A stretch of 64,000 nt of DNA from Alligator mississippiensis (GCF_030867095.1 NC_081830.1:240717-304716), one strand, 5' to 3'. Positions 1 through 64,000 are shown, numbered from the stretch's first letter. A program made the numbers and translations. The notes: generated by a model from the letters alone, not told the origin.

Positions 1-2003
1 AATCACAGCACTCACTTTTCCCAGTGCCATATAAGGCACTCTGTACAAGTTAATTGCTTAGTTCCAGGAAGGCCTAAAGTTATGCTAAGAGCCTGAGCAT
101 AACTCAGTTTGCCCGTTACAGTGACCATTGGGCCTAATTAGTGTGGGAACAGGGAAATATTCCAGGTAAGTCTGTGCTATTATGAAGCTTCCAAAATATC
201 ATATAATGAGCTGGGCTAGCATTGATGATGCTGACATCACTAAAGGGTTAAATAGCCTAAGCAAGTGAAATCACCGTTCACTGTCGGCGGTCTGATTCTC
301 CTGCGTGGATTTCTAAGGGAAGACCAAGCAATCGGACTTGGAACAACGGCAACCCGTGAAGCTCGCCCGGCGCGGCCGACTGGGAGCACCGCCTGGGTAC
401 CAGCTGTAGCCGGACTGTGATGCGGTGGAGTCACCTTAACACGCTCAGTCTTTGGTAACTGCCTGCTTATATCCTGGCAGTCTCAGTCAAGTTGACTACC
501 TGTATTCTGGCAACCCCAGTGGATGAATTGCTTTGTGTTTAATGGATCGTTTTTTTCAGTCAATTAAGCTTCTGACTGATAATTGGACGAGTGCCGGTCG
601 TTAATTGCATAGTTCTCCTCGCCCCCAGACAAGCAGGGCTCCAGTTTCAGCCCAATAAGCCCAACGCTGAGCATGGAGCACAGCAGCATCTCCAGAATAG
701 TAAGTTTGTAAGAGTGCTAGCCCTGAACACCTCAATATTTCAAACCTTCCTGTTTCTTATAGTTCATATTCCCCTTCCAGTACCTGTTCCCCCGCCCGCT
801 GCGCCCACCACCGCGGTGCTAAGCACTGCCCAGCACAGCAGCATCAGGAAAATGGTACATTTCCAACTTTCTGTTGTCTGGCATCTATCTACTCCTTGGC
901 CCTTCAATATTTCAAACCTTCCTATTTCTTACAATTCACAGAAGTGTGACGATTAGTTGAGGTGGACGCTGCGTGCCAGCCCGTCCCTGCAGACTATGAA
1001 GCATCCCGGTTGATATAGAGGTCATACATGCCCAACGGCCTCGGGGGGGGGGGGCAGGTTTCACCATTTTTTGGTTCAAACTCAAGTTCTTTTTTCTTCC
1101 CCTGCCTACACAACACTATGGACATCAGAGAGAGAACATTTTCAATACTGATACTATTGAGAAGCCACCTTTTTTTGTTAGGGTTATAAAACTTCAGGCA
1201 TTTGAAATTGTGTCAGTTGTTTTTTCTTTCATTGATCCATCCATCCACCCACACAAAGGCAGATTGAGTTTTGGGAGTGGGTGGGGTTGGTTGGTTGGGG
1301 GAAGTGCTGGCTGCACCTGCCTTTCTCGGCCTGGGGATCCTGTGCATGTATGCAAGATAGTTTCACAAAAGACAGGAGGTCACATGAGTCAGTCGCTGCT
1401 AACAAGCGTTTATAAGGTGGGGCAGTTATAGAGTCGCGGAATTACTGGAAAGATGGGAGGTCCTACAATGCTTCCTTTACCTGCAATCCCTAAGCCAGGA
1501 TCACCTTGCTGTAAGCATTAGTCAGCCCGTCGTCCCCCACCCCCTCCACCTGTCCACCCCAGAACCGGACAGACCAGAAGAAAAGCAGCAAGCGGCGATG
1601 CTTGGCCAGGCATGCATGCAGGGAGCGTGAGTGAGGCGAGTCTCAGGGGTGGGACTGAGACCGTTCCAAGTGCTGGCCCCGCCGCCTCGAAGGGCCGGGC
1701 ACATCGGTAGGGTTCAGAGTGAATGCGCCCCAAGCTGCTCTTCCAGGGCAGCTCCGCCTGGCACGGCGTGGGGGCTCTGCCCCTCCGCTCCACGCAGCGG
1801 CGCCCTAACAGCCAGGCTCCCTGCACCCGGAGCGCCCGGCTGCCCCCGGTAGGCCGCAGAGCGAACGCTGCTAGGGGTTCTCCTTCTGCAGGAGAACCCA
1901 CCTGTCTAGAGTGGTCCCCACATACCAGCAATCCTGGAGGCCATGACGCCTCCCCACAGCTGCCCTGGCTGCCCCTGGGAACAGACAAGCTGTGACCAAC
2001 CAC

Positions 2004-2009
2004 TTTATT
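2004..2009 (-). terminator. Polyadenylation signal (AATAAA on the minus strand) for the Cys-rich membrane-protein gene.
   Basis: TTTATT on the plus strand, about 120 nt downstream of the stop at 2125. Confidence 0.4.
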
Positions 2010-2124
2010 GTGTAAAAATAATCCAAGTTACATAAAAAAACAGGGAAGGCACCAGGGTAGAGAGGGGGGGCTCCCCAAGACACCGCCCCCCCTCAAGTGA
2101 GGGGCGGAGGGGCCCCGCGCCGCC

Positions 2125-2867
2125 TCACCGGAGCTTGACCTCGAAGCAGATGCAGTTGACGCTCTGGCAGTCGGGGGGCTGGCAGGCGCAGGCGCAGTCG
2201 CACAGGGGGCAGCAGCGTGGCAGGGGGGGGCAGGGGCCCAGCTCCCAGCCCTGGGGGAGGAGGACACAGGGGGAGGGAGGGAGGAAGGGAGGGGCGTCAC
2301 CCCCACGGGCCCTGCCCCGGGCAGCCCAAGCCCCGCCTCCCTGGAGGGGCGCAGAACCACACCCCACAGGCCCCACCCGCACGAGGGGCGGCCCCCAATA
2401 AGCCCTGCCCCCCACCCTGCTTCTGGCCCCAGCCCCCCCACTCACGTGCGGCCGGGGGCAGCAGGCGTCCAGGCAGGCGAAGGGCGAGGGCAGGGGCGCG
2501 GCGCAGCACGCGGGGGGCGCCCCCAGGCCCGCGCCCTCGCACCCGCAGCGCTCGGCGCAGCCGCCCCGCGCCTGGGGCAGAGCGCAGCATTAGCAGGGGG
2601 CCGCCCCGCCCGGCCCCCGCCCCGCACCCCCACCCCCGCCCCCATTACCAGCAGCCCCTGGCGCAGGGCGAGGAGCAGCAGCAGCCCCAGCAGGTAGGCG
2701 GCCACGGCCAGCAGCACCAGGGCGGGCAGCGGCAGGGGCAGCGGCGGGTCCGGGGGCCGCGTGGGCGCGGGGGGCAGCGCCTGCAGGGACACGAAGGGGT
2801 CGGGTCGGTGTGGCGGGCGGGCGGGCGGGCGGCTGGGCGCGGGGGCCGGCGGCGCACTCACCGTCAT
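2125..2867 (-). CDS. Unassigned small membrane protein gene (~156 aa). Three coding exons at 2649-2867, 2446-2571 and 2125-2250. Pro-rich N-terminus, one TM helix (LVLLAVAAYLLGLLLLLAL), then a Cys-rich cytoplasmic tail ending CPLCDCACACQPPDCQSVNCICFEVKLR.
   Basis: ATG at 2865-2867 (minus strand). Both introns are canonical GT-AG and keep the phase. The downstream ORF 2125..2445 starts exactly at the intron-1 donor GTG. TTTATT on the plus strand at 2004-2009 is a minus-strand AATAAA about 120 nt 3' of the stop. A CpG island lies upstream (3100-3500). No family recognised. Confidence 0.4.
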
Positions 2868-3992: not shown

Positions 3993-4394
3993 ATGGTGGC
4001 CTGCGCGACGCGGTGCTGGCTCCTCCTCTCCGCCCTGGCCCAGCTCCTCGGCGTGCAGGGGCGGGGCCGCACGTGGCACGCCCCGCCCCTGAACGCCAGT
4101 GTCCCGCCCCAGGCACCGCCCCCGCGCCTCTGGTTCGATTACCCCGACGACGACGCGGGCCGCGTGCGCGCCGCCTACGAGCGCCTGGGCGAGCCGCCGC
4201 GCGCCCCCCTGCCCAGTGAGCCCCGCCGCACGCCGTGCCTCGCCCCGTCCCGTCCCGCGCGGCCTCGGCCCCTGACAGCCCGCCCGCCCCTCCCTCCCGC
4301 AGACCCGCTGCCCCGCCTGCTCCGCCGCGTCACGCTGGGCGCCGCCGGCCTCGTGCTGCTGCTGCTCCTGGCGCAGGTCGTGGCGCCGCTGTAG
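3993..4394 (+). CDS. Candidate small type-I membrane protein (~130 aa). Signal peptide MVACATRCWLLLSALAQLLGVQG, NAS glycosylation site, acidic DYPDDDAG patch, C-terminal TM LGAAGLVLLLLLAQVV. One in-frame GT-AG intron is possible (about 4216-4302). Possibly a FIMP/C16orf92-like gene.
   Basis: ORF with signal-peptide plus TM architecture. The (AATAAA)n run at 4751-4783 lies 360 nt 3' of the stop. It is adjacent and convergent to TLCD3B, as C16orf92 is adjacent to FAM57B in human. No direct sequence match was recalled. Confidence 0.3.
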   Translation: MVACATRCWLLLSALAQLLGVQGRGRTWHAPPLNASVPPQAPPPRLWFDYPDDDAGRVRAAYERLGEPPRAPLPSEPRRTPCLAPSRPARPRPLTARPPLPPADPLPRLLRRVTLGAAGLVLLLLLAQVVAPL

Positions 4395-5147: not shown

Positions 5148-7599
5148 CTAGTCGGGGTGCGCGCGGGCGGGGCCGGCGCCCGGGCCGGGGGCTGGTGCGG
5201 CGGCGGGGGCGCGGAAGAGGCGCAGGGCCCCGCGGCAGATGAGGCCGAACCAGTAGAGCTGCGGCGCCAGGAGCAGCGCGGCCGCCGCGTTGTAGGCAGG
5301 CGGCAGCGCCAGCGGCACGGCCAGCAGCGGCAGCCCGGCGTGGCGCGCGTAGGCCCAGTACAGGTAGGGGAAGAGCAGCACGCGGCAGCAGAAGAAGGTG
5401 ACCAGCATGGCCGCGCCGTTCAGCTTGTGCAGCAGCGTGTGCTGCCGCTTGTACTGCGGGACACGCGGGTCAGTGCGGGGCCGCGGCGCGCCGCCCCCGC
5501 CCCGGCCTGGCCCGCCCCGCGCCCGGGGGGCACTCACCAGGATCAGCACCTTGCCCAGGCAGACGAAGGGCGTGCTCAGCTCGGCCATCAGCATGCAGCC
5601 CAGGAAGAAGTCGCCTTTGCCCTGGCGCCACAGCTGTGGGACACGGGGGTCAGCGCGGCCCGCATCTCCCGGCCCGGGGCTCCAGGCGTGCGGGCCGTGC
5701 TGCGGGGCGGGTGGGTACTCACGGCGGCCACGGGGAAGCAGACCAGCACCATGCAGAGGTGATGCAGCACCATGAGCAGCTCTTTGCGCAGGAAGGCGCG
5801 GGCGGCCGCCGCCAGCCCCCGGTCCGGCCCCGGCCCCGGCCCCGGCCCCGGGCCGCCGCGCGCCTGCAGCCGGCCCTTGTGCAGGTGGCACAGGAACATG
5901 GCGCCCAGGTCGTACACGAAGTAGGGCACCGCGAACTCGGGGTAGGCGCGGGCCAGCCAGTGTCTGCGGGCACAGCGCGGGCCGGGTCGGGGCGGCGGGG
6001 CCAGCCCGCCCGGGGGTGCTGGGAGCAGCCGGGGGTCACGGATCCCCGCTGCTGCCCCCGCGGTGCCCAGCAACCCCCCTTCCGCGACGCCCCGCCCCCG
6101 CCCCGCAGCCCCGCCCCGGGGCCAGGCCGTGCTGACTAGGCGGCTGCTCTGCGGGACGGGATTAGGCCGCGTGCCAGAGCCGCAGCCGGGACACTGCAGC
6201 AGCGGGGCTGCGGGGCCGAGCGGGGGGGTGGGGTGGGATGCGGGCGCAATTTTCCTACGACGCCCTGGCCCCCCTGTCCGCGGCGGGCGGGGAGGGGGAG
6301 CAGCACTCATTGTTTCCGGGCAGCGGGGGAGGGGCGGCCGGTGCAGGACCCCCCCCACAACGCCCCGCACACAGAGCGGAGCGAGGACCCAGGCGTCCGG
6401 GCAGCGCTGCTCGGCCGGCGCCGGCGAGAGCGGTGGGGATGGGGCTGGGGCCGCCGGGAGCACGGGCCTGCGGGCCCTGTCCGGTGCTGAAAGCAGCGCC
6501 GAGACTCGCCGCAGCACCACGGACAGCGGCAGCGCGGGCGCGGGCTCGGCCGGGCCTGGCTCCGGGGCCGAGGCGCGGGGTTGGGGGTCCCGGGGCCGGG
6601 GGCACTCACTGGTCATCGATGACGTGCTTGCAGGAGCTGGACACGATGTAGCCGGCCGTGGAGGCCATGACGGCCTGGATGGACGAGACCAGCCTGCGGG
6701 GGGGTTAGACGGCGTGTCCCGCACTCCCGACCCGCAGCCCCCGAGCCGGGCCGGGTGTCCCGCAGGCGCTGGGGGACGCCCCCCGGCAGGGCCCGCCCGT
6801 GCCCCTCCCCGGCCCCGCACCTGGCGGCCACGATGACGGCGTCGGGCTCGTCCCAGCGCAGCCCCGGCAGGCGCCGCAGCCCGGCCCGCGCCAGCAGGAA
6901 GAGCCCCGGGAAGAGCAGGCCCCCGGCCGCCAGCGCCCGCGGCATGGCCGCCAGGCCCGCTCAGCGGCGCGGCGGCCCGGGCCGGCGGGGGGCGCCGCGC
7001 ATGGCGGGCTGCGGCCGCTCGCACCCGGCGCCACCGAGCGAGCGGGCCGCGGGCATGGGCGGGGCTGCGGCGTCACGCAGGGGGCGGGGCAAGGGCGTCG
7101 CGGGGGGGCTGCGGGTCGGGAGTGCGGGGCACCGCTCGGGGTGGCGGTGGGGGGCGGGAGCGAGCAGCACCACTGGGGCAGGGGGTATCTGGGGTGTCCC
7201 ACAATGCCCCGGGGAGGTCAAGGTCAGGGGTGCCCCCCCGCCGCCCCAGGGCAGCGTGGGAATCCGCTCACGGCTAATCCCCGCCACACGGTGCCCCCCC
7301 AGCCCGAGTCACCCTGGAGTCACCTCGGGGGGCGCCGCCCCGTGGCTGCCCAGGGTCCTACCCCCGTCCCGCCGCGGACCCAGGTGCCCGGGCTGCCGAA
7401 ATGCCCGGCCGGGCTGAGGAGCCCTGGCCGCCCCCCGCCCCCCGCCCCGCGCCCCGGGCCTGGCGTGCGCTTACTTGGCGGCGAGGTAGGTGGCGTGCAG
7501 CGGGGGCAGGCGCAGCGGCGGGGCGCGCGCCAGGCCCCAGCGCAGCAGCACGAAGAGGCCCGGGAACAGCGCCCCCCCCGCCAGCAGCAGCAGCAGCAT
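5148..7599 (-). CDS. TLCD3B: TLC domain-containing protein 3B (FAM57B). Coding exons 5148-5453, 5538-5633, 5723-5963, 6610-6693, with alternative first coding exons 6821-6945 (MPRALAAGGLLFPGLFLLARAGLRRLPGLRWDEPDAVIVAA) or 7475-7599 (MLLLLLAGGALFPGLFVLLRWGLARAPPLRLPPLHATYLAA).
   Basis: Translation matches human FAM57B: LVSSIQAVMASTAGYIVSSSCKHVIDDQHWLARAY, FAVPYFVYD, QGKGDFFLGCMLMAELSTPFVCLGK, YKRQHTLLHKLNG, LLFPYLYWAY and LLAPQLYWF. All introns are GT-AG. The two first exons are each 125 nt and paralogous. Confidence 0.9.
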
Positions 7600-8480: not shown

Positions 8481-8589
8481 TACTCAGTGAGGCTCCCCCT
8501 TCAGGGGACAGGCCCGAGGCGCGTCGCCATAGCAACAGGCGGGATCCCCAGGGCGCAGCGCTCATGCGCACACAGCCAGGTCCATAGGA

Positions 8590-9752: not shown

Positions 9753-9788
9753 ATGGACCCCGGCAACTGGAGCAGCTTCATCTTCCAG
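9753..9788 (+). CDS. MAZ: MAZ exon 1 (MDPGNWSSFIFQ).
   Basis: ATG in a CpG island; donor cag|gtaacg. Confidence 0.8.
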
Positions 9789-12700
9789 GTAACGGCGCGG
9801 CCCGGCCCCCCCCGCCCGCCGCGCCCCGGGGGGGCCGCCCCGCCCCCCCCGCCGGGAGCCCCGCGCCCCCCCCGGCCGCGCGCCGCGCCGCCCCGCCCCC
9901 CGCGTCACCGCCGCGTCACCGCCCCCCGCGCCCTCGGTAGGGACCAGGGTTAACGCCCCGCGTGTCGTGTCGTGTCGTGTCTCCCGTGCCGCCCGCAGAG
10001 CCACGCGCAGAACCCGCTGCCCGTGGGCGCCGACCTGCAGTCCCGCTTCTTCGCCGCGCCCGGCTGCGCGCAGAGCCCCTTCCAGGTACGTCCTGCGCCC
10101 GGCCCGGCCCGGCCCGGCCCCGGGGCCTCCTGCCCCCCGCCGGCTCGGGGCCGCCCTGGCCTCCCTCCCGGGCCCGCAGGGTCTGGCAGCTCTTGTGCGC
10201 GGCCGACAGGGGCCGCCCCCGCCCCCGCCTGGCGCCCTGCCGCCGCCGGGCCGCCCCTGCGGGCTGGGCCCTCGAGCCCCTGGAAGCGGGGAGCCCCTGC
10301 CGGCCAGGCCCAAGCCAGGCTGCACATTGCCCCCGCCCGCGCGGCCCCACGTGCCCCAAGGCCGCCAGCCCGCGTGGCGGGAGCAGCCGCGTGCCAAGGG
10401 GGTCCCTGAGATGAGATGCCCCCCTCTGTCATGGGGTGACCCCCCAGAACACAGGGGGCGGGGCCTCCAGCAAGGGGCGGGGCCTGACCGTGTCCCCTCC
10501 CCCACAGGCGGCGGCCGCAGCGCCACCCCCGCCCCCACCCTCGGGGCCACCTGAGGGGCTGCAGGTTGACCTGCTGCCGGTGCTGGCGGCCGCCCAGGAG
10601 TCAGCCGCCGCCGCTGCTGCCGTAGCTGCCGCCGCTGCCGCCGCCGCAGCCCAGACCCCCGCCCCGGCCCCCACCGCCGCCTCCACCGTCGACACCGCCG
10701 CCCTCAAGGCCCCGCCCCCAGCCCCACCCGCCCCGGAGCCGCCCGCCCCGCCTGCCACCGCCCCCAGCCAGGCCCCCCCCTCAGCCGCATCCGCGGCGGC
10801 CATCGCCCAGGCGCCGCCCGTGCCAGCCCCCGCCCCGGCCCCATCCGCCGAGGCGCAGAAGAAGTCGAAGAGCAAGGGCCCCTACATCTGCTCGCTCTGC
10901 GCCAAGGAGTTCAAGAACGGCTACAACCTGCGGCGACACGAGGCCATCCACACAGGCGCCAAGGCGGCCCGGCCTGCGCCCGGCGCCATGAAGATGCCCA
11001 CCATGGTGCCACTGAGCTTGCTGAGCGTGTCAGCACTGGGCGGGGAGGCGGGGCCGGCGGCGGGTGCAGGCGGCACAGGCGGGGGCCTGGTGACCACCAC
11101 AGCCTCGGGCAAGCGCATCCGCAAGAACCACGCCTGCGAGATGTGTGGCAAGGCCTTCCGTGACGTCTATCACCTCAACCGGCACAAGCTGTCGCACTCG
11201 GACGAGAAGCCCTACCAGTGCCCCGTCTGCCAGCAGCGCTTCAAGCGCAAGGACCGCATGAGCTACCACGTGCGCTCGCACGACGGGGCCGTGCACAAGC
11301 CCTACATCTGCAGCCACTGCGGCAAGAGCTTCTCCCGGTACGTGGCGCGGGCCAGGCGGGCCGGGGGGCCACGGGCGGTGCCAGGCCCTGACCCTTTTCT
11401 CTGCCCTCCGCCAGGCCAGACCACCTGAACAGCCACGTGCGCCAGGTGCACTCCACAGAGCGGCCGTTCAAGTGTGAGGTAGGCGCCACGGAGCGAGCGG
11501 GGCAGGGGCCTGGGCATGGGGCAGGGGCCTGGCGTCACCTCCCAGGCTCAGGAAGGACCCAGGTCACTGAGACTGCAGCGGGCTGTGGACCCAGACGTCT
11601 TGGGGAGCGGGAGGTCCTGGAGGCTGTTCCTAGGAGGGGAGAGGACCCAGGCATCCGGGAAGGGGCTCCCCGGGGCCTGCAGTGCAGGAGGAAGGATCCA
11701 GGTTTCGGGGCAGGCAGGTGAGGTGAAGCCCAGCACCGCTCTGACCCTGGTCCCCACGCAGACGTGCGAGGCGGCCTTCGCCACCAAGGACCGGCTGCGG
11801 GCCCACACGGTGCGGCACGAGGAGAAGGTGCCGTGTCACGTGTGTGGCAAGATGCTGAGCGCCGCCTACATCACCGACCACATGAAGGTGCACAGCCAGG
11901 GCCCCCACCACGTCTGCGAGCTCTGCAATAAAGGTGCGATGTGGCCCTGCGCCTGTCTGTGCCCTGCGCCTGCCTTGCGATCCGCGCGTCCCAGGCACCT
12001 GAGATGCAGCCGCCGCCGGGGGGGTTCTGGGGCTACCGTGCAGCCATGGCCGGGGCACAACAAGGGCCAGGATGGGCCTAGCTCTGCTCTGTGGTGCCCA
12101 CAGGCAGTGGGCACTGGGGCAGGGAGGGGGGTGCTGGCCGCCGTCCCAGCTCTGAGATGCAGTCGCACGGGGACGTGGGCCGCCGTAGCGCCAAGGCGCC
12201 ATCGGGCAGGTGCAGGGGCCGGCCAGGAGGCGCCGCCAGCCCAGGGAGCTGCCCGCGTGCTGACGGGCGCTTTTGTTCTCGCCGCAGGCTTCACCACGGC
12301 GGCCTACCTGCGGGTGCACGCGGTCAAGGACCACGGACTGGCGGCCCCGCGGCCCGAGCGCTTCCTGTGCAAGCTCTGCGGCGTGCACTGTAAGACCCCT
12401 GCGCAGCTCAACGGGCACCTGCAGACCCACGCCGAGGGCCCGGCCCCTACCCCTGCCCCCACCGAAGCCCCACCCCTGCGCTGAGGCCCCCCCACAGGCA
12501 AGGCGTCTGGGGACCCGGCCGGGTGCAGGCACAGTGCCCGGGGCTGGGGCTGGCTGCGTCTTGGGAACGGGGTGGTGCGGCTGCATCTCAGACCAGGCAC
12601 TGGACCCAGCTGTCCAAGGGATGGAGGGGTGCGCGGCTGCATCTCAGACCTGGTGGTGGACCCAGGTGTCCAAGGGGGGGTGTGGGGGTGGCTGCATCTC

Positions 12701-14720: not shown

Positions 14721-15155
14721 ATGTCAGCCGAGGCAGTGAGGAAGGAGGAGGACGAGGCGCCCCCAGACCCTGCGCCGCCCCCGCAGCCTCCGCCCCCCTC
14801 GCCGGGGGCCCCAGTCACCACGGAGAGCCCGGCAGAGCCGCCCGCCGCCATGCAGAACGGCGTGGGCCCCGTGAGGGCCTGCTCTGCCGAGGCACTGGCA
14901 TCCCCACCCCGGCCCCCTGGTCCCCCCCGCTCCCAGTCAGACCTGGGGGGCGGCTGCGGGGCAGGGGGCAGGGCATCTGCCCCTCCTGCGCCCTCTGAGC
15001 TGGGGCCACCAGCCCAGGAGCCAGAGCCGGAGCCAGAGCCCGAGCCGGAACCAGAGCCGGAGGAGAAGCCACGGGACTTCGTGCTGCTTGCAGCCCTGGC
15101 CTGCTTCTGCCCTGTCTGGCCGGTCAACATCATCGCTTTTGCCTACGCCATCATG
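14721..15155 (+). CDS. PRRT2: PRRT2 main coding exon ([17 protein letters not shown]...(EP)6...FAYAIM).
   Basis: ATG directly follows an acceptor-like ccccgcag, implying an upstream non-coding exon. Donor atg|gtgagc. Confidence 0.85.
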
Positions 15156-15929
15156 GTGAGCCATGAGCCTGCCCTGGCCTCATCTGCATGCAGTGTGCCC
15201 TGCACCCCAAGGCGCCTGAGCAGGAGAGTGGGGGGCATGGGCTGCCCTGGGGTGTGCAGCTTGCGGGGTCAGCTGGGGGTCAGGGGATGGACCCCGGCCC
15301 TGGTCTGAGCCGGGTGGGCACAGTCCCGCAGCTCGCTCCAGCAGGGTGACGTGGACGGGGCGCGGCGACTGGGCCGTGTGGCCAAGCTGCTGAGCCTGGT
15401 GGGGCTGGGCGCCGGGGCCCTCATTATCGCCACCGTCATCGCCATGCACCCCGGTGGTAAGTGCAGCTCCCCATCCCTGGCCCCCAAAACTCTGCCCCTC
15501 GACCTCCCAACCTTGCCCCCTGCCTGTGAGCCAAGTCCCCAGGCTCCGAACCCCCGCCCCTGGGCCTCCTAGCCCTGCCTGTGGGTCCTGAAACCCCACC
15601 CCTGGGCATCTAAATCCTGCCTCCTGCATCCTAGCCCCACCTGCGGGCCCCAAAAGCCCACCCCGTGCCTCCTAGCCCCACTTCTGCCCACAGCCCCCAA
15701 AACCTGAACCCCGCCCCCTGGGCCCTGAAACTCCACCCTTGGGTTTCCAAATCCCACCCCTTTTGCCCTATGGCTCTTAGCCCTGCCCTAAACCCCAATT
15801 CCTGCGGCCTTGGCTCCACCCCCAGACCCCACCCCTCCCTGAACCCCACCCCCCGCAGCTGAAGCGGGAGGTGGGGGGGGGGGGTCGTGCTGACCACTCA
15901 CTGCCACCTTCCCCGCAGTGTTCAAGTGA
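14721..15929 (+). CDS. PRRT2: Proline-rich transmembrane protein 2, CDS span; three coding exons.
   Basis: Pro-rich N-terminus, then a C-terminal CD225/dispanin region [67 protein letters not shown]. This matches human [53 protein letters not shown]. Confidence 0.88.
15324..15456 (+). CDS. PRRT2: PRRT2 exon ([44 protein letters not shown]).
   Basis: Acceptor cacag|tcc; donor g|gtaagt. Confidence 0.8.
15919..15929 (+). CDS. PRRT2: PRRT2 terminal micro-exon (..VFK*).
   Basis: Acceptor ccccgcag|tgttcaagtga. Human ends ..GVYK*. Confidence 0.6.
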
Positions 15930-16751: not shown

Positions 16752-17060
16752 TAGGAGCAGGGAGGGCAAGACCCAACCACCCCAGGGCAGTGACAGCCCC
16801 GGGCTGCAAAGGCCCCTGGGACGTGGAATGACTGCCACAAAGGATTGTGGGACGAGCAGACATGGCAGGTGCATGGGGGTGGGGGTGGCTCTAGAATAAA
16901 TATGGCTGCCCATACCCCACCCAGGACCGTGGGGAGAACGAGGACGGAACGAGGTGGCGGGACACTGGACAATGCTGCAGGGCATTGTGAGACACCGGGG
17001 GCCGGAGGCAGGAAGCGGGGGGCAAGCCCTGCCCTGCACAGCCTGGCCCCAGCCCGGGCA

Positions 17061-46992: not shown

Positions 46993-46998
46993 AATAAA
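46993..46998 (+). terminator. KCTD13: KCTD13 polyA signal AATAAA.
   Basis: The string ttggaataaagaac, about 680 nt 3' of the stop. A T-rich 3' UTR precedes it. Confidence 0.65.
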
Positions 46999-48689: not shown

Positions 48690-49260
48690 TGACATTACAT
48701 GATATGGTAGAGAATAATCCTCTCGCGGTCTCTTATCTTCTATTGGACTTGGATCTCTCCGCAACTGTTGTGTCCCAACGAACTGTATTAGAGCAATCAC
48801 AGCCGGTCACACTACACTTGGCATGTTAGAGTGTATCGTATGATATTATGTACTGATTGCAATAAGTACTGGTTGTGCTGTATATTGATTGTATTAGATA
48901 TCGACTGCGCTGCAACTGCTAGGTTCTAACGCGTGACATGGACCAACTGTTGCATCTTGTCCATCCTGTTCTTCTTCTACCGTGCCGTCTTCTATATCGA
49001 CTCTATTGCATCGATCGTGTTCTGCAAGTCGTACTGCTCCATCAACCACATGCATGTCATTGCCTTACATGATGTTGCATTGTATTGTACTGAACTGTGT
49101 TGTATCCATTATACTATATTGTCTTATATTACATTGATCAATATGAACTGATATTTGATCATTGTAATGGATACAATGCAATACAATGTATTGTACAGTA
49201 TAATATATCTATTATACTGTTCTACAATACATTGGATTGCGTTGTTTCTAGTCTAGCATG
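48690..49260. other. AT-rich island (about 30% GC) containing nested hairpins, in the KCTD13-SEZ6L2 intergenic region.
   Basis: For example, ccaatgtattgtacagtataata / tattatactgttctacaatacattgg forms an about 23-bp stem at 49178-49232. A second hairpin is tgatcaatatgaactgatatttgatca at 49135-49165. Confidence 0.6.
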
Positions 49261-49799
49261 TGGCTGTCCATCAGCGAGGTCACCGGTTGGGCGCGGAGCC
49301 CTGGCCGTCAAGCAGTGGCGCACGGCAAAGGCAGGGAGGAAGCGCGTGGCCAGAAAAACAAGGATCTCTCGCATCCGGTCCTCCACCCCCCTCTGCTTCG
49401 TCTCTCTTCTTTCTCCTCTCCCCCACTTTCTCTTTTCTCCGTCCCTTTATCTTTCCCTCTTCTCCCCCAACCCCCTCCTGCTGGATGTGGTCATTTTCGC
49501 TTGCGAAGGCTGAACAACAGCATGGCATGGTACACGTTACACTACACTGTAGTGTACCACTGGCTGCCATTAGAGGACAGGAGGTTACACGATGGGAGCA
49601 GGTCAGCGGTGGGTGCTGGGGCGTGGGCCTGGCGCTACCGAGTCAGGGTCAGGCACCGTCTCTGCTCCACGTGCCCCACAGCCGTCTGTGCATGTCCCCA
49701 TTGCTGACGGGGCTGCCAGGCGAGAGCCACAGGGCGGGTGCGGGGTCATGGGGTGGAGGAAGGTCCCGGCCCAGAGCAGGTAGGACAGGATACCTGAGC

Positions 49800-50285
49800 T
49801 CAGGGGGCTCAGGCAGGGGGGTGCAGGGGGGCAGGGGCGGTGCGCGGGCTTGGGGACTCAGGCAGGCAGGGCGCGGGGCAGCAGGGGCGGTGCGTGGGGC
49901 TCAGGCGGGGTGCAGGGTGGCAGGGGCGGTGCGTGGGCTTGGGGACTCAGGCGGGTGGGGCACAAGGTAGCAGGGGCAGTGTGCAGGGCTCAGGTGGGGT
50001 GTGGGGCAGCAGAGGCAGTGTGTGGGGTGCGAGGCGGCAGGGGCAGTGCGTGGGGTGCAGGGCTCAGGTGGGGTGCGGGGCGGCAGTGGCAGTGTATGGG
50101 GTGCGGGGCTCAGGTGGGGTGCAGGGAAGCAGAGGCAGTGTGCGGGCTGGCAAGGGCAGTGTGCAGGGTGTGGGGCGGCAAGGGCAGTGCGCGGGGTGCG
50201 GGGCTCAGGTGGGGTGTGGGGCGGCAGGGGCAGTGTGCGGGGTGTGGGGCGGCAGGGGCAGTGCGCGGGCCGGCGGGGGGGGAGG
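49800..50285 (+). repeat. G-rich minisatellite of about 12 × 41 bp with unit GCAGGGGCGGTGCGTGGGGCTCAGGCGGGGTGCAGGGTGGCA, ending about 100 bp 5' of the SEZ6L2 ATG.
   Basis: Highly regular tandem copies with G-runs of 3-4 on the plus strand (G-quadruplex-prone). ORFs 49840..51048 and 49901..50737 are translation artefacts of this repeat. Confidence 0.85.
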
Positions 50286-50391
50286 GAGGCCGAAGCCCGC
50301 GTGCGCGGGGCTGAGCCCGCTCCCCCCCCGCATTGCCGCCGCCGTCGCTGCTGCAGGAAAGCGCCAGAAGCCGCGCGGGTCCGGCCCCGCC

Positions 50392-55740
<5,349 letters not shown>

Positions 55741-58081: not shown

Positions 58082-58455
58082 ATGGAGTCCGTGGTGACGG
58101 AGGAAGAAGGGGAAGTGACCTCGGGGATGCAGCTGCTGGCCGTGGAGGATCCTGCAGGCCCCGAGGAGGTGCCGGCCGGGGCAGAGGAGGAGCCGCAGGG
58201 GCAGGAGGAAGACACGGCGGCAGGCGGGGAGGAAGACTGGTGCGTGGGCTGCAGTGACGAGGAGGTGGAGGCCCCCGAGGCCTGGATGCCACCACCTACT
58301 GAGATCCGGCGCCTGTACGAGCTCATCGCGGCGCAGGGCAGCCTGGAGCTGCAGGCCGAGAGCCTGCCCCGCCGCGCCCCCACGCCCGAGCCCGACAGCG
58401 AGGAGGACGAGCGCTCAGATGGGCCCCCGGCCAGTGAGGAAGAGGAGGAGGAGAA
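58082..58455 (+). CDS. PAGR1: PAGR1 exon 1.
   Basis: ATG at 58082; donor aa|gtgagc (phase 2). Confidence 0.88.
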
Positions 58456-58975
58456 GTGAGCACTTGGCCTGAGTGAAGGGATGCGGGTCGGGAGCGAGGG
58501 GCACCGCTGGAGGCCAAGGGGCTTTGGGGGGCTGAAGGGCAGGGCTGAGGGGTCCCATGGGGCTCTGGGGGTTCCCCCATTCCTGCCACCCCTCCAGTGA
58601 CAACCTCTCTGCCCCCAGGCCCCACATCCCGACTGAGTTTGACTTTGACGACGAGCCTGCCTCACCCAAGAGCACCCTCATCGACCGTCGCAGAGCACCA
58701 GGTAAGCCCATGGGGGGACCCTGGCAGCCAGGCCTGGCAGGGGCAGGGGTGTGCAGGCGACCCTAGGGCTGACACATGCACTTGCCGCAGGCGCAGGGTC
58801 ACGCAGCCAGAAGCGGGAGGCGCGGCTGGATAAGGTGCTGTCAGACATGCAGCGCCACAAGCAGCTGGAGGAGCAGATCCTGCGCACCGGGCGCGACCTC
58901 TTCCAGCTGGACAGCGGTGATGAGCCCATGCCCAAGCGCCCGTCTGGACTCTTCCTGCGCCAGCGCAAGTACTGA
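58082..58975 (+). CDS. PAGR1: PAXIP1-associated glutamate-rich protein 1 (PA1), CDS span; three coding exons.
   Basis: The CDS reads [16 protein letters not shown]...[53 protein letters not shown]...[28 protein letters not shown]...[39 protein letters not shown]...LFLRQRKY*. This is highly similar to human PAGR1. Confidence 0.92.
58609..58691 (+). CDS. PAGR1: PAGR1 exon 2 ([28 protein letters not shown]).
   Basis: Acceptor ctgcccccag; donor g|gtaagc. Confidence 0.88.
58791..58975 (+). CDS. PAGR1: PAGR1 exon 3 (..[35 protein letters not shown]...RQRKY*).
   Basis: Acceptor cttgccgcag; stop TGA at 58973-58975. Confidence 0.9.
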
Positions 58976-59795: not shown

Positions 59796-61551
59796 TCACT
59801 CGCTGTCGTCCTCGTCGCTGCTGATGATGCCGCGGAGCTGGGACCAGTCGGGGCGGGTGCGGGGGGGGCTGGGCGCTGGCGGGGTGCTGGGCGCCGCGTA
59901 CAAGCTCCATACATTGCGGCGGCGTGGGCGGCCTGCGCAGGGAGGGCAGAGGTCAGAGCACCGGGGAACCCAGGCATCCAGCCCCCACCCCCTGCTCAGT
60001 CGCTGTACGCACCGTGGGAGGGAATGATGTTGCCCAAGTCCAGCGCGGCCACCTCAGCCTCCTGCTCGCGGCGCAGGCGCACCTCCTGGCATCGCTGCAG
60101 CGATGGGCGCCCTGCAGGGTGGGGAGGAAGGGGGTTGAGTGGGGCTGCAGGGGCATCCCCAGCCCTGGCCCCCACTGCCACTCACCATCCAGGCCGAGCG
60201 CAGCCAGCTCCTGGCGCAGCACAGCCACGCGCTCCCGCCGGCTCCGGCACCCGCCCAGCAGCTTGCGATAGTTGGGCCGCACGCCACAGACGCGCAGGTA
60301 CCGCTTCAAGCGCCGCACCTCTGGGGCGTCCCCCGGCTCCTGCTTTCCCGTCCGCAGCCGGCCCTGTGTGCACGCGCTGGTCAGCCAGATAGCGGGCCTC
60401 CTGCCGCCCTGCTGTGCCCCATCCAGCCCCCAACACCCGGGTCCCCTGCTGCTTTACTGGCCCAGAGCTCTCAGCGCCCCTGGGCCCCACACTCACCTTC
60501 TGCTTCTTGCCCCCGGCGGCGCTGTGGGAGCGGGTGTTCTCCTGCGGGCGGGTGTTCTCCTCGTCGGAGGAGGACGAGGACGAGGAGGAGGAAGAGGAGG
60601 AGTCTTCGGCGCTCGCCTCCCGCTCCTTGTCCCCTGCCCCGGCCTCCCCCTCTGGCACGGACGCCTCTGGGCTCTCACTGCTGTTGGCCTTCATCTTTTT
60701 GGCCTCAGGGCTCTTGGCATCCCTGGCCCTTGGCTTCTTGGCCTCCGGGCTCCCCGTGTGCCTGGGACTCAGCTTCTTGGCCTCTGGGCTCTCGAGGTCC
60801 GCAGCCCTCAGTTTCTTGGTCTCTGGGCTCTTGGCCTCCCTGTCCGAGCCGTCGCTGTCGGAGCTGGACTCTGGGGGAGGCGAGGGGCTGGGGCTGGCGC
60901 TACTCTCATGCTCGGCGGCAGCTCTGGGCTTCTCGGCCTGCACAGACGGGTTGGGGTTGGAGCGGGCGAGACCCGCGGCGGGGGGCACGGGGGGGGGGGG
61001 GGGGGGGGTGACATGGGGGGTCCTCACCTGCGTGCGCAGCTCGGCCTCCACCAGGCGCCGCAGCAACCGCTTCTCGCCCGGCATCAGGCTCCCGTGCCCC
61101 GACTGTGCCACGAACCGGCGCCGCACGGCCCCCAGCGTCAGCGCGCTGCGGGGGTGTCAGCATGGGCGCGGGTCCCGGCCAGCTCCCACCGTCCTGCGTG
61201 CCCCGGAGCCAGGGCGGCCCAGCTCCCACAATCCTCTGCTCCCCGATGAACCCACTAGCCCAGCTCCCACAGTCCTTTGCTGCTCCCTATAACCCCACCA
61301 TAGAACCCAGGCGGGCCAGCTCCCACAATCCTTTGCTTCCCTGGGGAACCCAGGTGTCCTCGGTCCCACAATTTTCTGCTCCCCACAATGGACCCAGGGG
61401 CCCTGCCTCCCAGAATCCTTTGCGCTGCCACCCTGGTCTCCCAGGCAACCCAGGTGCCCCCGCCCCTTGCCCGGGGTCACCTGGGGTCGCGGCTGTCTTC
61501 GAAGAGCCGCCGCGTGAATTCGCGCAGTTCCTGCTCCCGCTCCGCCGCCAT
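59796..61551 (-). CDS. HIRIP3: HIRA-interacting protein 3. About six coding exons: about 61481-61551, 61028-61144, about 60496-61000 (large acidic Ser/Glu-rich exon), about 60186-60363, 60013-60111 and 59796-59932.
   Basis: The protein begins MAAEREQELREFTRRLF and includes VRRRFVAQSGHGSLMPGEKRLLRRLVEAELRTQ. The acidic/serine exon has repeated SPEAKK motifs and a poly-Ser tract. The CHZ-like region has MRRLKRYLRVCGVRPNYRKLLGGCRSRRERVAVLRQELAALGLD and ..AEVAALDLGNIIPSH. The C-terminus PDWSQLRGIISSDEDDSE* matches human PDWSHMRGIISSDGESN*. Confidence 0.9.
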
Positions 61552-61879: not shown

Positions 61880-61966
61880 ATGAACGGCGCCGCGGCCGAG
61901 GCCGAGCCGGGCGGACACAAGCGGCGCTACCGGGCCCTCAAGCGGCGCCTCAAGCTGCTGGTCTAC
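61880..61966 (+). CDS. INO80E: INO80E exon 1.
   Basis: ATG at 61880; donor tac|gtgcgc. Confidence 0.9.
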
Positions 61967-63640
61967 GTGCGCGGGGGGGCAGCGGGGGCGGGCCGCGGGG
62001 GGGGCCGGCGCTGCGGGCCCCCGTGACGCCTTCCCCCTTTCCCCCCAGGAGCAGGAGTGCTTCCAGGAGGAGCTGAGGAAGGCGCAGCGCAGACTGCTCA
62101 AGGTGTCGCGGGATAAGAGGTGAGGGGGCCGCGGGGCGGGCGGGCACGGGCAGCGCGGGCCGCCCTGACAGCACCGCTCTTTCACCCCCGCAGCTTCCTG
62201 CTGGACCGGCTGCTGCAGTACGAGCACGTGGACGAGGAGTCCTCGGGTACGGATTTCGGGGGGCCCCGGGTGCGTGCGTGCGGGAGGGCCGCGGGTCTGC
62301 GTCCCCCTGACGTCTCCTTTCCCCCTGGCCGCAGACTCGGAGGCGACGGCCTCGTCCGACAACAGTGACGGGGACGGGCCCAAGGGCGCAGCCGAGCCCC
62401 CGCCCCTGAAGAGGTGAGGTCCCGCGTGCGCTTGTGCGGAGCGTGCTCGGGGGGGCGGGCGTCGTCAAGACGAAACACCAGCTTTGAACACGACGGCCCA
62501 GGCTTTGCCGGGTGACGGTCGTCTACTCGTGCCACGGACGGTCGTGGCCCCCTGGGGGGGTCGGCGGGGAAAGTAGCGTTCAGCGCGCCTGTCTGGGCGT
62601 GCGCCAGGCTCAGGTGTGGCTGCCAAATCCTCCCTGCCTGCAGCCCCCACAACGTGTCTCTGTCGCCCAGGAAGCGGAGCCCCCAGCTGGGCGGCGCCTC
62701 GTCCCCGTCCTCCTCTGGCCTCTCCCTGCAAGCGACCACCGCCTTCCCGCTGCCGGGGTCCGGAGCCCCCTCCCCCTACCTCAGCTCGGTGAGTAGGAAC
62801 CAGCCTCTCCACCCCCTGCTTTTGCAGGGTGGGCAGGGGAACTGCCTGCAGAGATTGCTGGTGTCGTTTGCCAGCACCAAAGATGGCTGCTGTGACCAGA
62901 AAAGGGCAAATGCCAGGGTCCAAGATGGCTGACAGGCGTCCCTGTGCAGGGGTGGGGCTCTGGTGGGAGTGGCACAGGTGGGTTTCTTTGCCAGTACACA
63001 GTATGGTTGCCAGGACTTCTTTTATTATGCTTAGTGAGGGTGAAGTACGCCTACTTTGGGCCTGGCCAAGTTCCAACACAGTGGGCTTGCTTGGCCGGCA
63101 GCTGGGGTGGCCAAATCTCCCTGCTCCTAAGCACCCTCGTGCAGGGGGTGGGGTACGGCCACATGGCAGCTTATCGTCCTCCTCCTCCGCAGATGGCGTC
63201 TCCCCCCTACAGCCCCTTTCCTGCCGAGTACCTGGCGCCTGAGCCTGGAGCCACCCGGCAGGCCCCCGACCGCCGCGCCAAGGCCCCCCGCAAGCTCCAG
63301 GTACGACACAGGTGGATGGGGGGGAGCGCCCGGCGCCAAGGTGGCTACCAGGCCCTGGGGGGAGGTGGTGGTGCGTGCCAGGCCCCAAGATGGCTGCACT
63401 GACACACTCCCTCCCCTGCAGATGGCGTCGGCCGAGTGTTCGGTGGGGGGGGCGCTGGGGTTTGGGCCAGGCCGGGGGGGGGGCCCAGGCGCCCTGCCCC
63501 CGCTCTCGGCCTCGGCCAAGCTGCCGCCGCCGCCAGTGCCCTGCACGGTGCCGCAGCAGATGTTCAGCGACACAGCCGAGGGCAGTGGCGACGACCCCCT
63601 GGACGGCGACGATGAGCTCGTCATTGACATCCCCGAGTGA
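61880..63640 (+). CDS. INO80E: INO80 complex subunit E, CDS span; seven coding exons.
   Basis: The CDS reads [85 protein letters not shown]...[20 protein letters not shown]...SPYLSS...[31 protein letters not shown]. This is highly similar to human INO80E. Confidence 0.93.
62049..62119 (+). CDS. INO80E: INO80E exon 2.
   Basis: Acceptor ccccccag; donor ag|gtgagg. Confidence 0.9.
62194..62246 (+). CDS. INO80E: INO80E exon 3.
   Basis: Acceptor cccccgcag; donor g|gtacgg. Confidence 0.9.
62335..62413 (+). CDS. INO80E: INO80E exon 4.
   Basis: Acceptor ggccgcag; donor ag|gtgagg. Confidence 0.9.
62671..62788 (+). CDS. INO80E: INO80E exon 5.
   Basis: Acceptor tcgcccag; donor tcg|gtgagt. Confidence 0.9.
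63193..63300 (+). CDS. INO80E: INO80E exon 6.
   Basis: Acceptor cctccgcag; donor cag|gtacga. Confidence 0.9.
63422..63640 (+). CDS. INO80E: INO80E exon 7 (terminal).
   Basis: Acceptor cccctgcag; stop TGA at 63638-63640. Confidence 0.9.
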
Positions 63641-63651
63641 CCCCTGACCCC

Positions 63652-63657
63652 AATAAA
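63652..63657 (+). terminator. INO80E: INO80E polyA signal AATAAA.
   Basis: The string ccccaataaacactg, 12 nt after the stop. Confidence 0.7.
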
Positions 63658-64000
63658 CACTGCCTCTGCTGCTGCCCGCTCCCGCCACTGTCTGGGGGGT
63701 GCTCCTTTAAGGGCGCTGGGGTTTCTGCCTGGGGGGGAGAAAACTGCAAAGTTAAAGGGGACTTGACTCGAGGTCCAGGTGGGTGCTGGGGAAGAGAAAA
63801 TCCTGGCTTAAAGGGGTGAGTTGAGGTCCACCCAGCTGGGGGGGGTCCTGGGAGCCCAGACGCCCCGGGCTCACCCCACACCAGCCTGACAGTAGAGTGC
63901 GGGGGATGGGGGGTGCTCTGCGCTGCTTCCGGGGTCCCCCTTCCACTTGGGGCCAGCGACAGCCTCCTGATGCTGCGGTCTGGTGGGCAGGGCCTGCGGG

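What the first reader, a model, noticed from the sequence alone, without database searches (positions are those of the whole stretch)
1..64000. 16p11.2-orthologous block with non-human gene order and orientation in a sauropsid (CR1-bearing) genome
All 11 assignable genes belong to the human 16p11.2 BP4-BP5 interval. Here the order is TLCD3B(-) MAZ(+) PRRT2(+) CDIPT(-) [geneX(-)] TAOK2(-) TMEM219(-) KCTD13(+) SEZ6L2(+) PAGR1(+) HIRIP3(-) INO80E(+). Compared with human, the SEZ6L2..TAOK2 segment is inverted. PAGR1 has moved next to HIRIP3. TLCD3B, which is distal to DOC2A in human, lies upstream of MAZ. MVP and ASPHD1 are absent. The whole cluster occupies about 60 kb here against about 250 kb in human.
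Basis: partly seen in the sequence, partly recalled or inferred. Interest (0 to 1): 0.6.

Follow-up and report, generated by a model that had tools for sequence, protein, structure and literature searches.

The report
Alligator 16p11.2 block keeps ancestral order
This is a gap-free, very GC-rich stretch of the American alligator genome carrying the counterparts of the human 16p11.2 autism-region genes in a different order from human; that order is real but ordinary, because turtle, bird, gecko, frog and bowfin share its key gene neighbourhoods, so the mammalian order is the rearranged one.

Summary
The window is Alligator mississippiensis: two of its exons translate to RefSeq alligator proteins at 100% identity. 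It has no Ns and is about 70% GC. The gene order is TLCD3B(-) MAZ(+) PRRT2(+) CDIPT(-) geneX(-) TAOK2(-) TMEM219(-) KCTD13(+) SEZ6L2(+) PAGR1(+) HIRIP3(-) INO80E(+), within 58.5 kb. MVP, ASPHD1 and DOC2A are not in the window.

The order is not an assembly artefact and is not peculiar to the alligator.
- TAOK2 followed by CDIPT on the same strand also occurs in emu, a frog and bowfin.
- CDIPT and PRRT2 lie tail-to-tail in turtle, gecko and frog.
- KCTD13(+) ASPHD1(-) SEZ6L2(+) ... PAGR1(+) HIRIP3(-) occurs in a turtle.
- SEZ6L2 followed by PAGR1 occurs in a crane.
- Echidna already has the human-like CDIPT/MVP pair.

So the core of the alligator order is ancestral and mammals are derived, by at least 3-6 inversions. 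The TLCD3B-MAZ junction could not be checked in another species.

Two by-products:
- geneX is real (LOC109283116). It belongs to an unnamed gene family that reaches back to sharks, and by position it is probably the intact counterpart of the human pseudogene CDIPTOSP.
- ASPHD1 has been lost from its slot in the alligator.

This is ordinary comparative genomics and of low interest.

The parts
3993..4394 (+). Candidate small membrane-protein ORF (133 aa, with a signal peptide and one transmembrane helix), tail-to-tail with TLCD3B. In human this position and orientation is held by C16orf92/FIMP. Identity not established.
   Evidence: ORF listed. Coding-like codon-position GC of 0.86/0.63/0.90. 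No Pfam match. The positional argument rests on my own knowledge of the human map.
5148..6909 (-). TLCD3B (FAM57B), head-to-head with MAZ across a CpG-rich gap of about 3 kb
   Evidence: Pfam TLC domain E 2.1e-15. Four tblastn segments against human TLCD3B, 5214-6909.
9993..12484 (+). MAZ
   Evidence: C2H2 zinc fingers. tblastn against human MAZ, 70-96% identity, 9993-11950. A further C2H2-finger ORF (11516-12484) probably supplies an alternative 3' exon.
14721..15570 (+). PRRT2 (3' end approximate)
   Evidence: CD225 domain. tblastn 15069-15386. Reading frames.
17060..18190 (-). CDIPT: six exons in 1.1 kb, tail-to-tail with PRRT2
   Evidence: Exons read. The spliced protein is 73-74% identical to turtle CDIPT and 97% to a partial A. 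mississippiensis CDIPT.
18816..20260 (-). geneX = LOC109283116, an uncharacterised conserved gene. The RefSeq model extends 5' to 21983. The most conserved exon is 19189-19332.
   Evidence: Last exon 100% identical to XP_059586372.1. Exons are conserved in gecko L008 and green turtle L005 directly upstream of CDIPT on the same strand. Family alignment.
21676..21738 (+). CR1-like ORF2 C-terminal peptide (…PREVVLAPTPGVFKRGLDDYL), a LINE fragment
   Evidence: Matches a repeat ORF in gecko L008. It is the only FKxxLD motif in the window. Calling it CR1 rests on my own knowledge of CR1 ORF2 tails.
24947..37474 (-). TAOK2. Kinase exons lie at 34689-37474. The large exon specific to the alpha isoform is 30549-32483. 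The beta-isoform 3' exons are 24947-26205.
   Evidence: 22 tblastn segments against human TAOK2. ORFs.
40786..41583 (-). TMEM219, exon carrying the family domain. The full extent of the gene was not mapped. It is head-to-head with KCTD13.
   Evidence: Pfam PF14940 E 4.3e-5, below the family's gathering score for this single exon. tblastn against human TMEM219, 41077-41283, E 2.7e-5.
43860..46311 (+). KCTD13
   Evidence: BTB_2 domain. Five tblastn segments, 60-91% identity. Stop codon read.
46312..50400 (.). KCTD13-SEZ6L2 spacer, where a turtle carries ASPHD1(-). No ASPHD1 is detectable here. GC-rich minisatellites at 49803-50269.
   Evidence: only non-significant traces at 47067-47308 (-). Turtle locus L010. 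Tandem repeats.
50400..55740 (+). SEZ6L2 (start approximate)
   Evidence: Sushi and CUB domains. The C-terminal exon and stop codon are conserved with crane. tblastn.
58082..58975 (+). PAGR1, three exons
   Evidence: Exon 1 100% identical to A. mississippiensis PAGR1; the other two exons align at 79-98%. PAXIP1_C domain.
59796..61150 (-). HIRIP3, tail-to-tail with PAGR1 and head-to-head with INO80E
   Evidence: tblastn against human HIRIP3, four segments. Stop codon. The turtle HIRIP3 exon matches.
61900..63640 (+). INO80E (start approximate)
   Evidence: Pfam PF24237 E 1.7e-24. tblastn. The C-terminus …[12 protein letters not shown].

Best explanation
The window is a contiguous piece of an American alligator chromosome that carries the orthologue of the core of the human 16p11.2 BP4-BP5 interval. 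It is packed into about 58 kb of roughly 70% GC DNA.

Its gene order differs from human because the mammalian lineage rearranged the region, not the alligator lineage. The alligator keeps the older arrangement: MAZ> PRRT2> <CDIPT <geneX <TAOK2 <TMEM219 KCTD13> (<ASPHD1) SEZ6L2> PAGR1> <HIRIP3 INO80E>.

Changes on the mammalian stem, present before monotremes and therians split for at least the CDIPT neighbourhood:
- The TAOK2..SEZ6L2 block was inverted.
- geneX was flipped to the strand opposite CDIPT, where human now has the pseudogene CDIPTOSP.
- PAGR1 and MVP came to lie between PRRT2 and CDIPT.

Tightly coupled gene pairs survived as units, with breakpoints falling between them. These are MAZ-PRRT2, TMEM219/KCTD13 (head-to-head) and HIRIP3/INO80E (head-to-head).

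The only change specific to the alligator that I can show is the loss of ASPHD1 from the KCTD13-SEZ6L2 spacer.

Shown: gene identities, order and strands, and the shared junctions in other species. Inferred: the polarity of the PAGR1 and TLCD3B positions, the number and type of rearrangement events, and the equation of geneX with CDIPTOSP.
For: Species and contiguity:
- PAGR1 exon 1 is 100% identical to the A. mississippiensis protein.
- The last geneX exon is 100% identical to XP_059586372.1.
- There are no Ns in the window.

Shared junctions, each from an independent assembly:
- Emu: TAOK2(+) CDIPT(+), 1.2 kb apart.
- Frog (Spea): TAOK2(+) CDIPT(+) PRRT2(-).
- Bowfin: TAOK2(+) CDIPT(+) MAZ(+).
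- Green turtle: geneX(+) CDIPT(+) PRRT2(-).
- Gecko: geneX(+) CDIPT(+) PRRT2(-).
- Turtle (Pangshura), one chromosome: KCTD13(+) ASPHD1(-) SEZ6L2(+) at 719-741 kb, then PAGR1(+) HIRIP3(-) at 762-774 kb.
- Crane: the SEZ6L2 stop codon lies 1.5 kb upstream of PAGR1(+), which is followed by INO80E(+).

Other support:
- The kinase next to CDIPT in frog, bowfin and emu resembles TAOK2 more than TAOK1 over the diagnostic C-terminal exons.
- Echidna has geneX(-) CDIPT(+) MVP(-), which is the human-like state.
- Mouse shares the human order (PMC11568765).
- Zebrafish does not share the human order (PMC3484866).
Against: - The TLCD3B|MAZ junction was not seen in any other species. The look-ups were exhausted, and the crane locus ends 1.5 kb beyond MAZ.
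- No non-amniote outgroup was obtained for the position of PAGR1. A lizard has KIF22(-) PAGR1(+) ASPHD1(-), so the ancestral amniote position of PAGR1 is unresolved.
- Each comparison locus covers only about 10 kb on either side of the gene used to find it.
- In the Pangshura turtle, 11.5 kb between the SEZ6L2 5' exons and the PAGR1 flank was not seen.
- The human gene order and several of the human query proteins were recalled from memory. The MVP query was validated against PDB. The others produced strong hits, which validates them as queries.
- The alligator genome itself could not be retrieved from the contig index, so what lies beyond the ends of the window is unknown.
Confidence: 0.8

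Rival explanations
1. The non-human order is an assembly artefact, that is, a scaffold misjoin or mis-oriented contigs in a hard-to-assemble GC-rich region.
For: The region is about 70% GC. In an older alligator assembly CDIPT sat on a 7.6 kb contig and gave only a partial protein (P0091). GC-rich regions of this kind are known to drop out of sauropsid assemblies (PMC4539667).
Against: There are no Ns in the 64 kb. Every non-human junction except TLCD3B|MAZ recurs in independent assemblies of turtle, gecko, emu, crane, frog or bowfin.
Confidence: 0.03
2. The common ancestor of amniotes had the human-like order, and the sauropsid (or archosaur plus turtle) lineage inverted the SEZ6L2..TAOK2 block and moved PAGR1. 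This is what the first reader's wording implies.
For: Human and mouse share one order. A lizard places PAGR1 beside KIF22, a gene that in human lies near MAZ, PRRT2 and PAGR1.
Against: The TAOK2->CDIPT junction is present in a frog and in bowfin. CDIPT/PRRT2 tail-to-tail is present in the frog. Both lie outside amniotes. A human-like ancestor would therefore require the same junctions to arise independently several times.
Confidence: 0.07
3. Neither genome is ancestral throughout. The core (PRRT2-CDIPT-geneX-TAOK2…SEZ6L2) is ancestral in the alligator. The positions of PAGR1 and of the C16orf92/TLCD3B pair next to MAZ are changes specific to turtles and archosaurs, or to crocodilians. On this view the region is a recurrent rearrangement hotspot in all amniote lineages.
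For: Four PAGR1 neighbourhoods were seen. Alligator and turtle have SEZ6L2/HIRIP3, crane has SEZ6L2/INO80E, lizard has KIF22/ASPHD1, and human has PRRT2/MVP. Emu has a Fibrinogen_C gene instead of PRRT2 beside CDIPT, and crane has MAZ(-) after INO80E. TLCD3B|MAZ was not replicated.
Against: Nothing contradicts it. It refines the best explanation rather than excluding it. No outgroup data exist for these two junctions.
Confidence: 0.35

Closest known systems
Human 16p11.2 BP4-BP5 single-copy interval and its collinear mouse counterpart on 7qF3
   Same: The gene content is the same for 11 named genes, plus the slot where human has CDIPTOSP. The same tightly linked units are present: MAZ-PRRT2, SEZ6L2..KCTD13/TMEM219-TAOK2 and HIRIP3/INO80E, including the two head-to-head promoter pairs.
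   Different: The order and orientation of the units differ, by at least 3 inversions for five blocks, 4 with geneX and 6 with TLCD3B. MVP, ASPHD1, DOC2A and KIF22 are not in the window. The block is about four times more compact and about 70% GC. geneX is an intact coding gene on the same strand as CDIPT.
Turtle orthologous regions (Pangshura tecta CM099110.1 and Chelonia mydas CM026903.2)
   Same: The order and strands are the same for KCTD13, SEZ6L2, PAGR1 and HIRIP3, and for geneX, CDIPT and PRRT2.
   Different: The turtle keeps ASPHD1 between KCTD13 and SEZ6L2. Its intergenic distances are several times larger and its GC content is lower.
Zebrafish 16p11.2 homologues (Blaker-Lee et al. 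2012, PMC3484866)
   Same: Zebrafish also shows that the human order is not the general vertebrate order. kctd13, sez6l2 and asphd1 stay grouped there.
   Different: The zebrafish genes are scattered over chromosomes 3, 12 and 16 and some are duplicated. The alligator keeps all of them in one compact block.
GC-rich 'hidden' genes of birds (Hron et al. 2015, PMC4539667)
   Same: Extreme GC content, compact genes, and a history of being fragmented or missing in older assemblies (the alligator CDIPT contig of 7.6 kb).
   Different: Here the region is fully assembled, and it is from a crocodilian, not a bird.

Membership tests
Orthologue of the human 16p11.2 BP4-BP5 block | Contains one-to-one orthologues of the single-copy genes of the interval | tested here: met
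   Eleven named genes were identified by Pfam domains and by tblastn or phmmer against orthologues.
Orthologue of the human 16p11.2 BP4-BP5 block | Collinear gene order and orientation with human and mouse | tested here: not met
   The signed order differs. The minimum is 3-6 inversions, depending on which genes are included. The human order comes from my own knowledge and is consistent with PMC11211608 and PMC11568765.
Ancestral bony-vertebrate microsynteny TAOK2 -> CDIPT (same strand, adjacent) | The TAOK2 3' end lies immediately upstream of CDIPT on the same strand | tested here: met
   In the window, TAOK2 ends at 24947 and CDIPT starts at about 18190, with geneX between them. The same junction occurs in emu, Spea and bowfin.
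Tetrapod microsynteny CDIPT/PRRT2 tail-to-tail | The 3' ends of CDIPT and PRRT2 face each other with no gene between them | tested here: met
   In the window, PRRT2 ends at about 15570 and the CDIPT stop is at about 17060. The same holds in green turtle, gecko and Spea.
Sauropsid (crocodilian) genome | Proteins identical to those of a named species | tested here: met
   PAGR1 exon 1 and the last geneX exon are 100% identical to A. mississippiensis RefSeq proteins.
Sauropsid (crocodilian) genome | Presence of CR1 LINE fragments | tested here: inconclusive
   There is one CR1-like ORF2-tail peptide at 21676-21738, which matches a gecko repeat ORF. No RepeatMasker run or reverse-transcriptase domain evidence was obtained.
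ASPHD1 | An Asp_Arg_Hydrox-domain gene between KCTD13 and SEZ6L2 | tested here: not met
   It is present in that slot in a turtle. In the window, 14 orthologues give only non-significant hits with E of 0.12 or more.
MVP | Exons encoding the vault repeats or shoulder domain | tested here: not met
   A validated 893-aa MVP query finds the echidna MVP exons but nothing in the window.
CDIPTOS(P), the gene on the strand opposite CDIPT | Lies immediately 5' of CDIPT; in mammals it is on the opposite strand | tested here: met
   geneX is immediately 5' of CDIPT in alligator, turtle and gecko, on the same strand. Its echidna homologue is immediately 5' of CDIPT on the opposite strand. Human CDIPTOSP lies between CDIPT and SEZ6L2 (PMC11211608).
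CDIPTOS(P), the gene on the strand opposite CDIPT | Sequence homology to human CDIPTOSP or mouse Cdiptos | not testable with these tools

The most novel reading that the evidence does not exclude
geneX (LOC109283116) belongs to an unnamed protein-coding gene family with no Pfam entry. The family dates back at least to the common ancestor of sharks and tetrapods. Its signature is RGRxPSHHKQVEAVRxEEHMGGAFVTQRRRSPRRSPS…GLSPLVSE. In the five amniote species examined here it lies immediately 5' of CDIPT; linkage in sharks, fishes and amphibians was not examined. It was flipped to the opposite strand in early mammals, decayed to the pseudogene CDIPTOSP in human, and was not found beside CDIPT in the one bird locus examined (emu). 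If so, the human 16p11.2 interval contains the relic of a lost ancient gene. Alligator ASPHD1, by contrast, was lost outright after crocodilians split from turtles.
Probability: 0.45. Interest if true: 0.35.

Novelty: already known. Interest (0 to 1): 0.2.

Why it matters
For 16p11.2 research the useful point is one of polarity. The human and mouse gene order used in all CNV models is a derived mammalian arrangement. In the older arrangement TAOK2 sits beside CDIPT and PRRT2, MVP is not between PAGR1 and CDIPT, and an extra coding gene (geneX) sits where human has CDIPTOSP. This bears on arguments about shared regulatory domains among 16p11.2 genes.

Otherwise this is a routine microsynteny difference across roughly 320 million years. 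It can be seen in public annotated genomes, and it does not open a new question.

Tried and rejected
- Alligator contig look-up. Looking up the alligator PAGR1 proteins in the contig index, to fetch the flanks of the window, found nothing on record.
- ASPHD1 pseudogene relic. Lizard ASPHD1 gave weak, frame-shifted, collinear hits at 47067-47308 (-), which is exactly the expected slot and strand. With 14 orthologues the E-values were 0.12-2, no better than chance hits elsewhere such as 32601-32870, and the two turtle queries did not hit there at all. I rejected it as evidence and kept it only as a remark.
- Pfam on geneX. All three minus-strand frames, three family members, and the ORFs at 2445-2909, 3111-3521, 3957-4391 and 21346-21753 gave no family.
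- DNA references for frame translations.
- HIRIP3 in the crane locus. Not found. Two annotated crane 'genes' between SEZ6L2 and PAGR1 turned out to lie within the span of SEZ6L2, whose last exon and stop codon lie further downstream.
- geneX in emu, Spea and bowfin, between TAOK2 and CDIPT. No hit.
- Rfam and tRNA scans of the window. Nothing found.
- Literature. I found no paper on the sauropsid order of this block.

Full report
**What the window is**

The 64 kb contain no N and average about 70% GC, with a single AT-rich island at 27.8-30.0 kb. The ORF at 58082-58459 is 100% identical to PAGR1 of Alligator mississippiensis and 96% identical to that of A. sinensis. The three PAGR1 exons map at 58082-58456, 58590-58703 and 58784-58972. 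The last exon of geneX is 100% identical to the A. mississippiensis RefSeq protein XP_059586372.1, which sits on a 90 Mb scaffold. The source is therefore the American alligator.

**Checking the observation**

- TLCD3B(-) 5148-6909 (TLC domain; exon map).
- MAZ(+) 9993-12484.
- PRRT2(+) 14721 to about 15570.
- CDIPT(-) about 17060-18190, six exons.
- geneX(-) 18816-20260.
- TAOK2(-) 24947-37474.
- TMEM219(-), exon within 40786-41583.
- KCTD13(+) 43860-46311.
- SEZ6L2(+) about 50400-55740.
- PAGR1(+) 58082-58975.
- HIRIP3(-) 59796 to about 61150.
- INO80E(+) about 61900-63640.

From the TLCD3B stop to the INO80E stop is 58.5 kb.

Three genes are absent:
- MVP. I recalled the 893-aa human MVP from memory and confirmed it as MVP against PDB (1984 bits over its full length). 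It finds the echidna MVP exons but nothing in the window (best E 0.3).
- DOC2A. No hit.
- ASPHD1. No hit; see the ASPHD1 section.

**Is it an artefact?**

No. Besides the absence of gaps, I fetched orthologous loci from other species. I did this by looking up PAGR1, CDIPT and ASPHD1 orthologues and reading the roughly 10 kb on either side of each. All but one of the 'non-human' junctions recur in independent assemblies.

With CDIPT drawn on the + strand:
- Emu: TAOK2(+) CDIPT(+).
- Frog (Spea bombifrons): TAOK2(+) CDIPT(+) PRRT2(-).
- Bowfin: TAOK2(+) CDIPT(+) MAZ(+).
- Green turtle: geneX(+) CDIPT(+) PRRT2(-).
- Gecko (Sphaerodactylus): geneX(+) CDIPT(+) PRRT2(-).

The kinase beside CDIPT in frog, bowfin and emu is closer to TAOK2 than to TAOK1 over the diagnostic C-terminal exons.

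For the other end of the block:
- In the turtle Pangshura tecta, one chromosome carries KCTD13(+) ASPHD1(-) SEZ6L2(+) at 719-741 kb and PAGR1(+) HIRIP3(-) at 762-774 kb. This is the alligator order and orientation, with ASPHD1 still in place.
- In the red-crowned crane, the SEZ6L2 stop codon lies 1.5 kb upstream of PAGR1(+), which is followed by INO80E(+).

**Polarity**

Frog and bowfin lie outside amniotes and share the TAOK2-CDIPT junction. The frog also shares CDIPT/PRRT2. These junctions are therefore ancestral.

Echidna already shows the human state. CDIPT(+) is tail-to-tail with MVP(-), and the geneX homologue is on the strand opposite CDIPT. Mouse is collinear with human (PMC11568765). 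Zebrafish is not (PMC3484866).

For the core of the block, then, the mammalian order is derived and the alligator order is conserved. This is the reverse of what 'is inverted' and 'has moved' suggest.

Treating the conserved units as blocks, alligator and human differ by at least 3 inversions across five blocks. The minimum is 4 if geneX is included and 6 if TLCD3B is included.

The units that stay intact are MAZ-PRRT2, TAOK2-TMEM219/KCTD13-(ASPHD1)-SEZ6L2 and HIRIP3/INO80E. The two head-to-head promoter pairs have never been separated.

**Limits**

- The TLCD3B|MAZ junction could not be examined in any other species.
- PAGR1 has four different neighbourhoods: alligator and turtle, crane, the lizard Phrynosoma with KIF22(-) … PAGR1(+) ASPHD1(-), and human. 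I have no non-amniote outgroup for it, so its ancestral position is open.
- Birds carry changes of their own. Crane has INO80E(+) followed by MAZ(-), with no HIRIP3 between PAGR1 and INO80E. Emu has a Fibrinogen_C gene, not PRRT2, beside CDIPT. A single further inversion of the CDIPT..INO80E segment would explain both.
- The region therefore looks like a recurrent rearrangement site in amniotes.

**geneX**

Codon-position GC periodicity pointed to coding exons on the minus strand at 18.8-19.9 kb. Two exons are conserved in gecko and three in green turtle, always just upstream of CDIPT on the same strand.

A full HMMER search returned 12 relatives. Among them is the alligator RefSeq model, 'uncharacterized protein LOC109283116 isoform X2'. 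The others are unnamed proteins from geckos, a turtle, frogs, a newt, a caecilian, coelacanth, lungfish and sharks.

The family has no Pfam entry. It shares a strongly conserved C-terminal signature, RGRxPSHHKQVEAVRxEEHMGGAFVTQRRRSPRRSPS…GLSPLVSE…SPSRxGSxKF.

The RefSeq isoform X2 skips the exon carrying most of this signature (window 19189-19332), although that exon is intact in the window.

The echidna homologue lies head-to-head with CDIPT. Human CDIPTOSP ('CDIP transferase opposite strand, pseudogene') is annotated between CDIPT and SEZ6L2 (PMC11211608). On this basis geneX is probably the intact orthologue of that pseudogene. This is an inference from position. I could not align it to the human sequence.

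**ASPHD1**

A turtle has ASPHD1 exactly between KCTD13 and SEZ6L2. The corresponding 4.1 kb of the alligator window (46.3-50.4 kb) has no ASPHD1.

Lizard ASPHD1 gave faint frame-shifted matches at 47067-47308 (-). Fourteen orthologues gave E-values of 0.12 or more there, which is no better than chance matches elsewhere in the window. The turtle queries gave nothing at that site. I therefore do not count it as a relic.

Among the best 120 of 193 ASPHD-family hits, ASPHD1 appears for squamates, turtles, amphibians, lungfish and mammals. Birds appear only as ASPHD2, and no crocodilian appears at all. This is compatible with loss of ASPHD1 in archosaurs but does not prove it.

**Verdict**

What it shows is a conserved ancestral microsynteny in a compact, GC-rich crocodilian region, set against a rearranged mammalian one. 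All the genes, including geneX, are already in the public RefSeq annotation. Rearrangements of this size over about 320 million years are commonplace.

I found no paper describing the sauropsid order, but the result is not surprising to a specialist. Interest is low (0.2). The most novel reading still open concerns geneX and CDIPTOSP.

Noticed in passing
window 18816-20260 (-); RefSeq model extends to 21983: geneX is LOC109283116. It belongs to an unnamed gene family with no Pfam entry, found from sharks to reptiles and in echidna. The family shares the signature …HHKQVEAVRxEEHMGGAFVTQRRRSPRRSPS…GLSPLVSE. By position it matches the human pseudogene CDIPTOSP. It was not found between TAOK2 and CDIPT in emu, Spea or bowfin.
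   Followed up: yes
window 19189-19332 (-): The RefSeq isoform X2 of LOC109283116 skips this exon, the most conserved in the family, although it is intact and in frame in the window. The same model has a doubtful 5' extension that runs through repeat sequence (20443-20673 and 21891-21983).
   Followed up: partly
window 46312-50400; faint matches at 47067-47308 (-): ASPHD1 is missing from the slot where a turtle has it. Only non-significant, frame-shifted similarity remains. No archosaur ASPHD1 appeared among the best 120 of 193 ASPHD-family hits.
   Followed up: yes
window 3993-4394 (+): A 133-aa ORF with a signal peptide, a 'WFDYPDDD' stretch and a C-terminal transmembrane helix. Its codon-position GC (0.86/0.63/0.90) looks coding. 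It lies tail-to-tail with TLCD3B, where human has C16orf92/FIMP. No Pfam match, and its identity is unverified.
   Followed up: partly
window 20659-21083 and 23618-23900: Two degenerate arrays of a roughly 24-nt unit (GGGACCAGTAAG…/ACCAGTATAGCTGGGTAA…), 2.5 kb apart. They flank lower-GC sequence that includes a CR1-like ORF2-tail peptide at 21676-21738 (+). One possibility is a single minisatellite split by insertions.
   Followed up: partly
window 27800-30000: An AT-rich island (28-43% GC) of 2.2 kb inside a TAOK2 intron, within a window that is otherwise about 70% GC. It has inverted repeats at 28416-28522 and 28639-28953. It is probably a transposon insertion, but it was not classified.
   Followed up: no
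window 30549-32483 (-), repeats at 31747-31889: The large TAOK2 exon specific to the alpha isoform encodes a run of degenerate 11-residue repeats (…[22 protein letters not shown]…). TRF reports a period of 33 nt with 4.3 copies.
   Followed up: no
L002 (crane) 8455-20104; L004 (emu) 16018-22581: Birds differ again. In crane, PAGR1 is followed 150 bp later by INO80E with no HIRIP3 between them, and MAZ(-) follows INO80E. In emu a Fibrinogen_C-domain gene, not PRRT2, lies tail-to-tail with CDIPT. Two annotated crane 'genes' (216 aa and 369 aa) lie within the span of SEZ6L2, before its last exon, and are probably mis-annotations.
   Followed up: partly
window 49803-50269: Overlapping GC-rich minisatellites with periods of 28 to 89 nt, immediately upstream of the SEZ6L2 start codon.
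   Followed up: no
window 17060-18190 (CDIPT): Alligator CDIPT is only about 73% identical to turtle CDIPT, while turtle, amphibian and mammalian CDIPT score about equally against the alligator query. This suggests fast, probably GC-biased, evolution of this block in the alligator. In an older assembly the gene sat on a 7.6 kb contig and gave a partial 148-aa protein.
   Followed up: no
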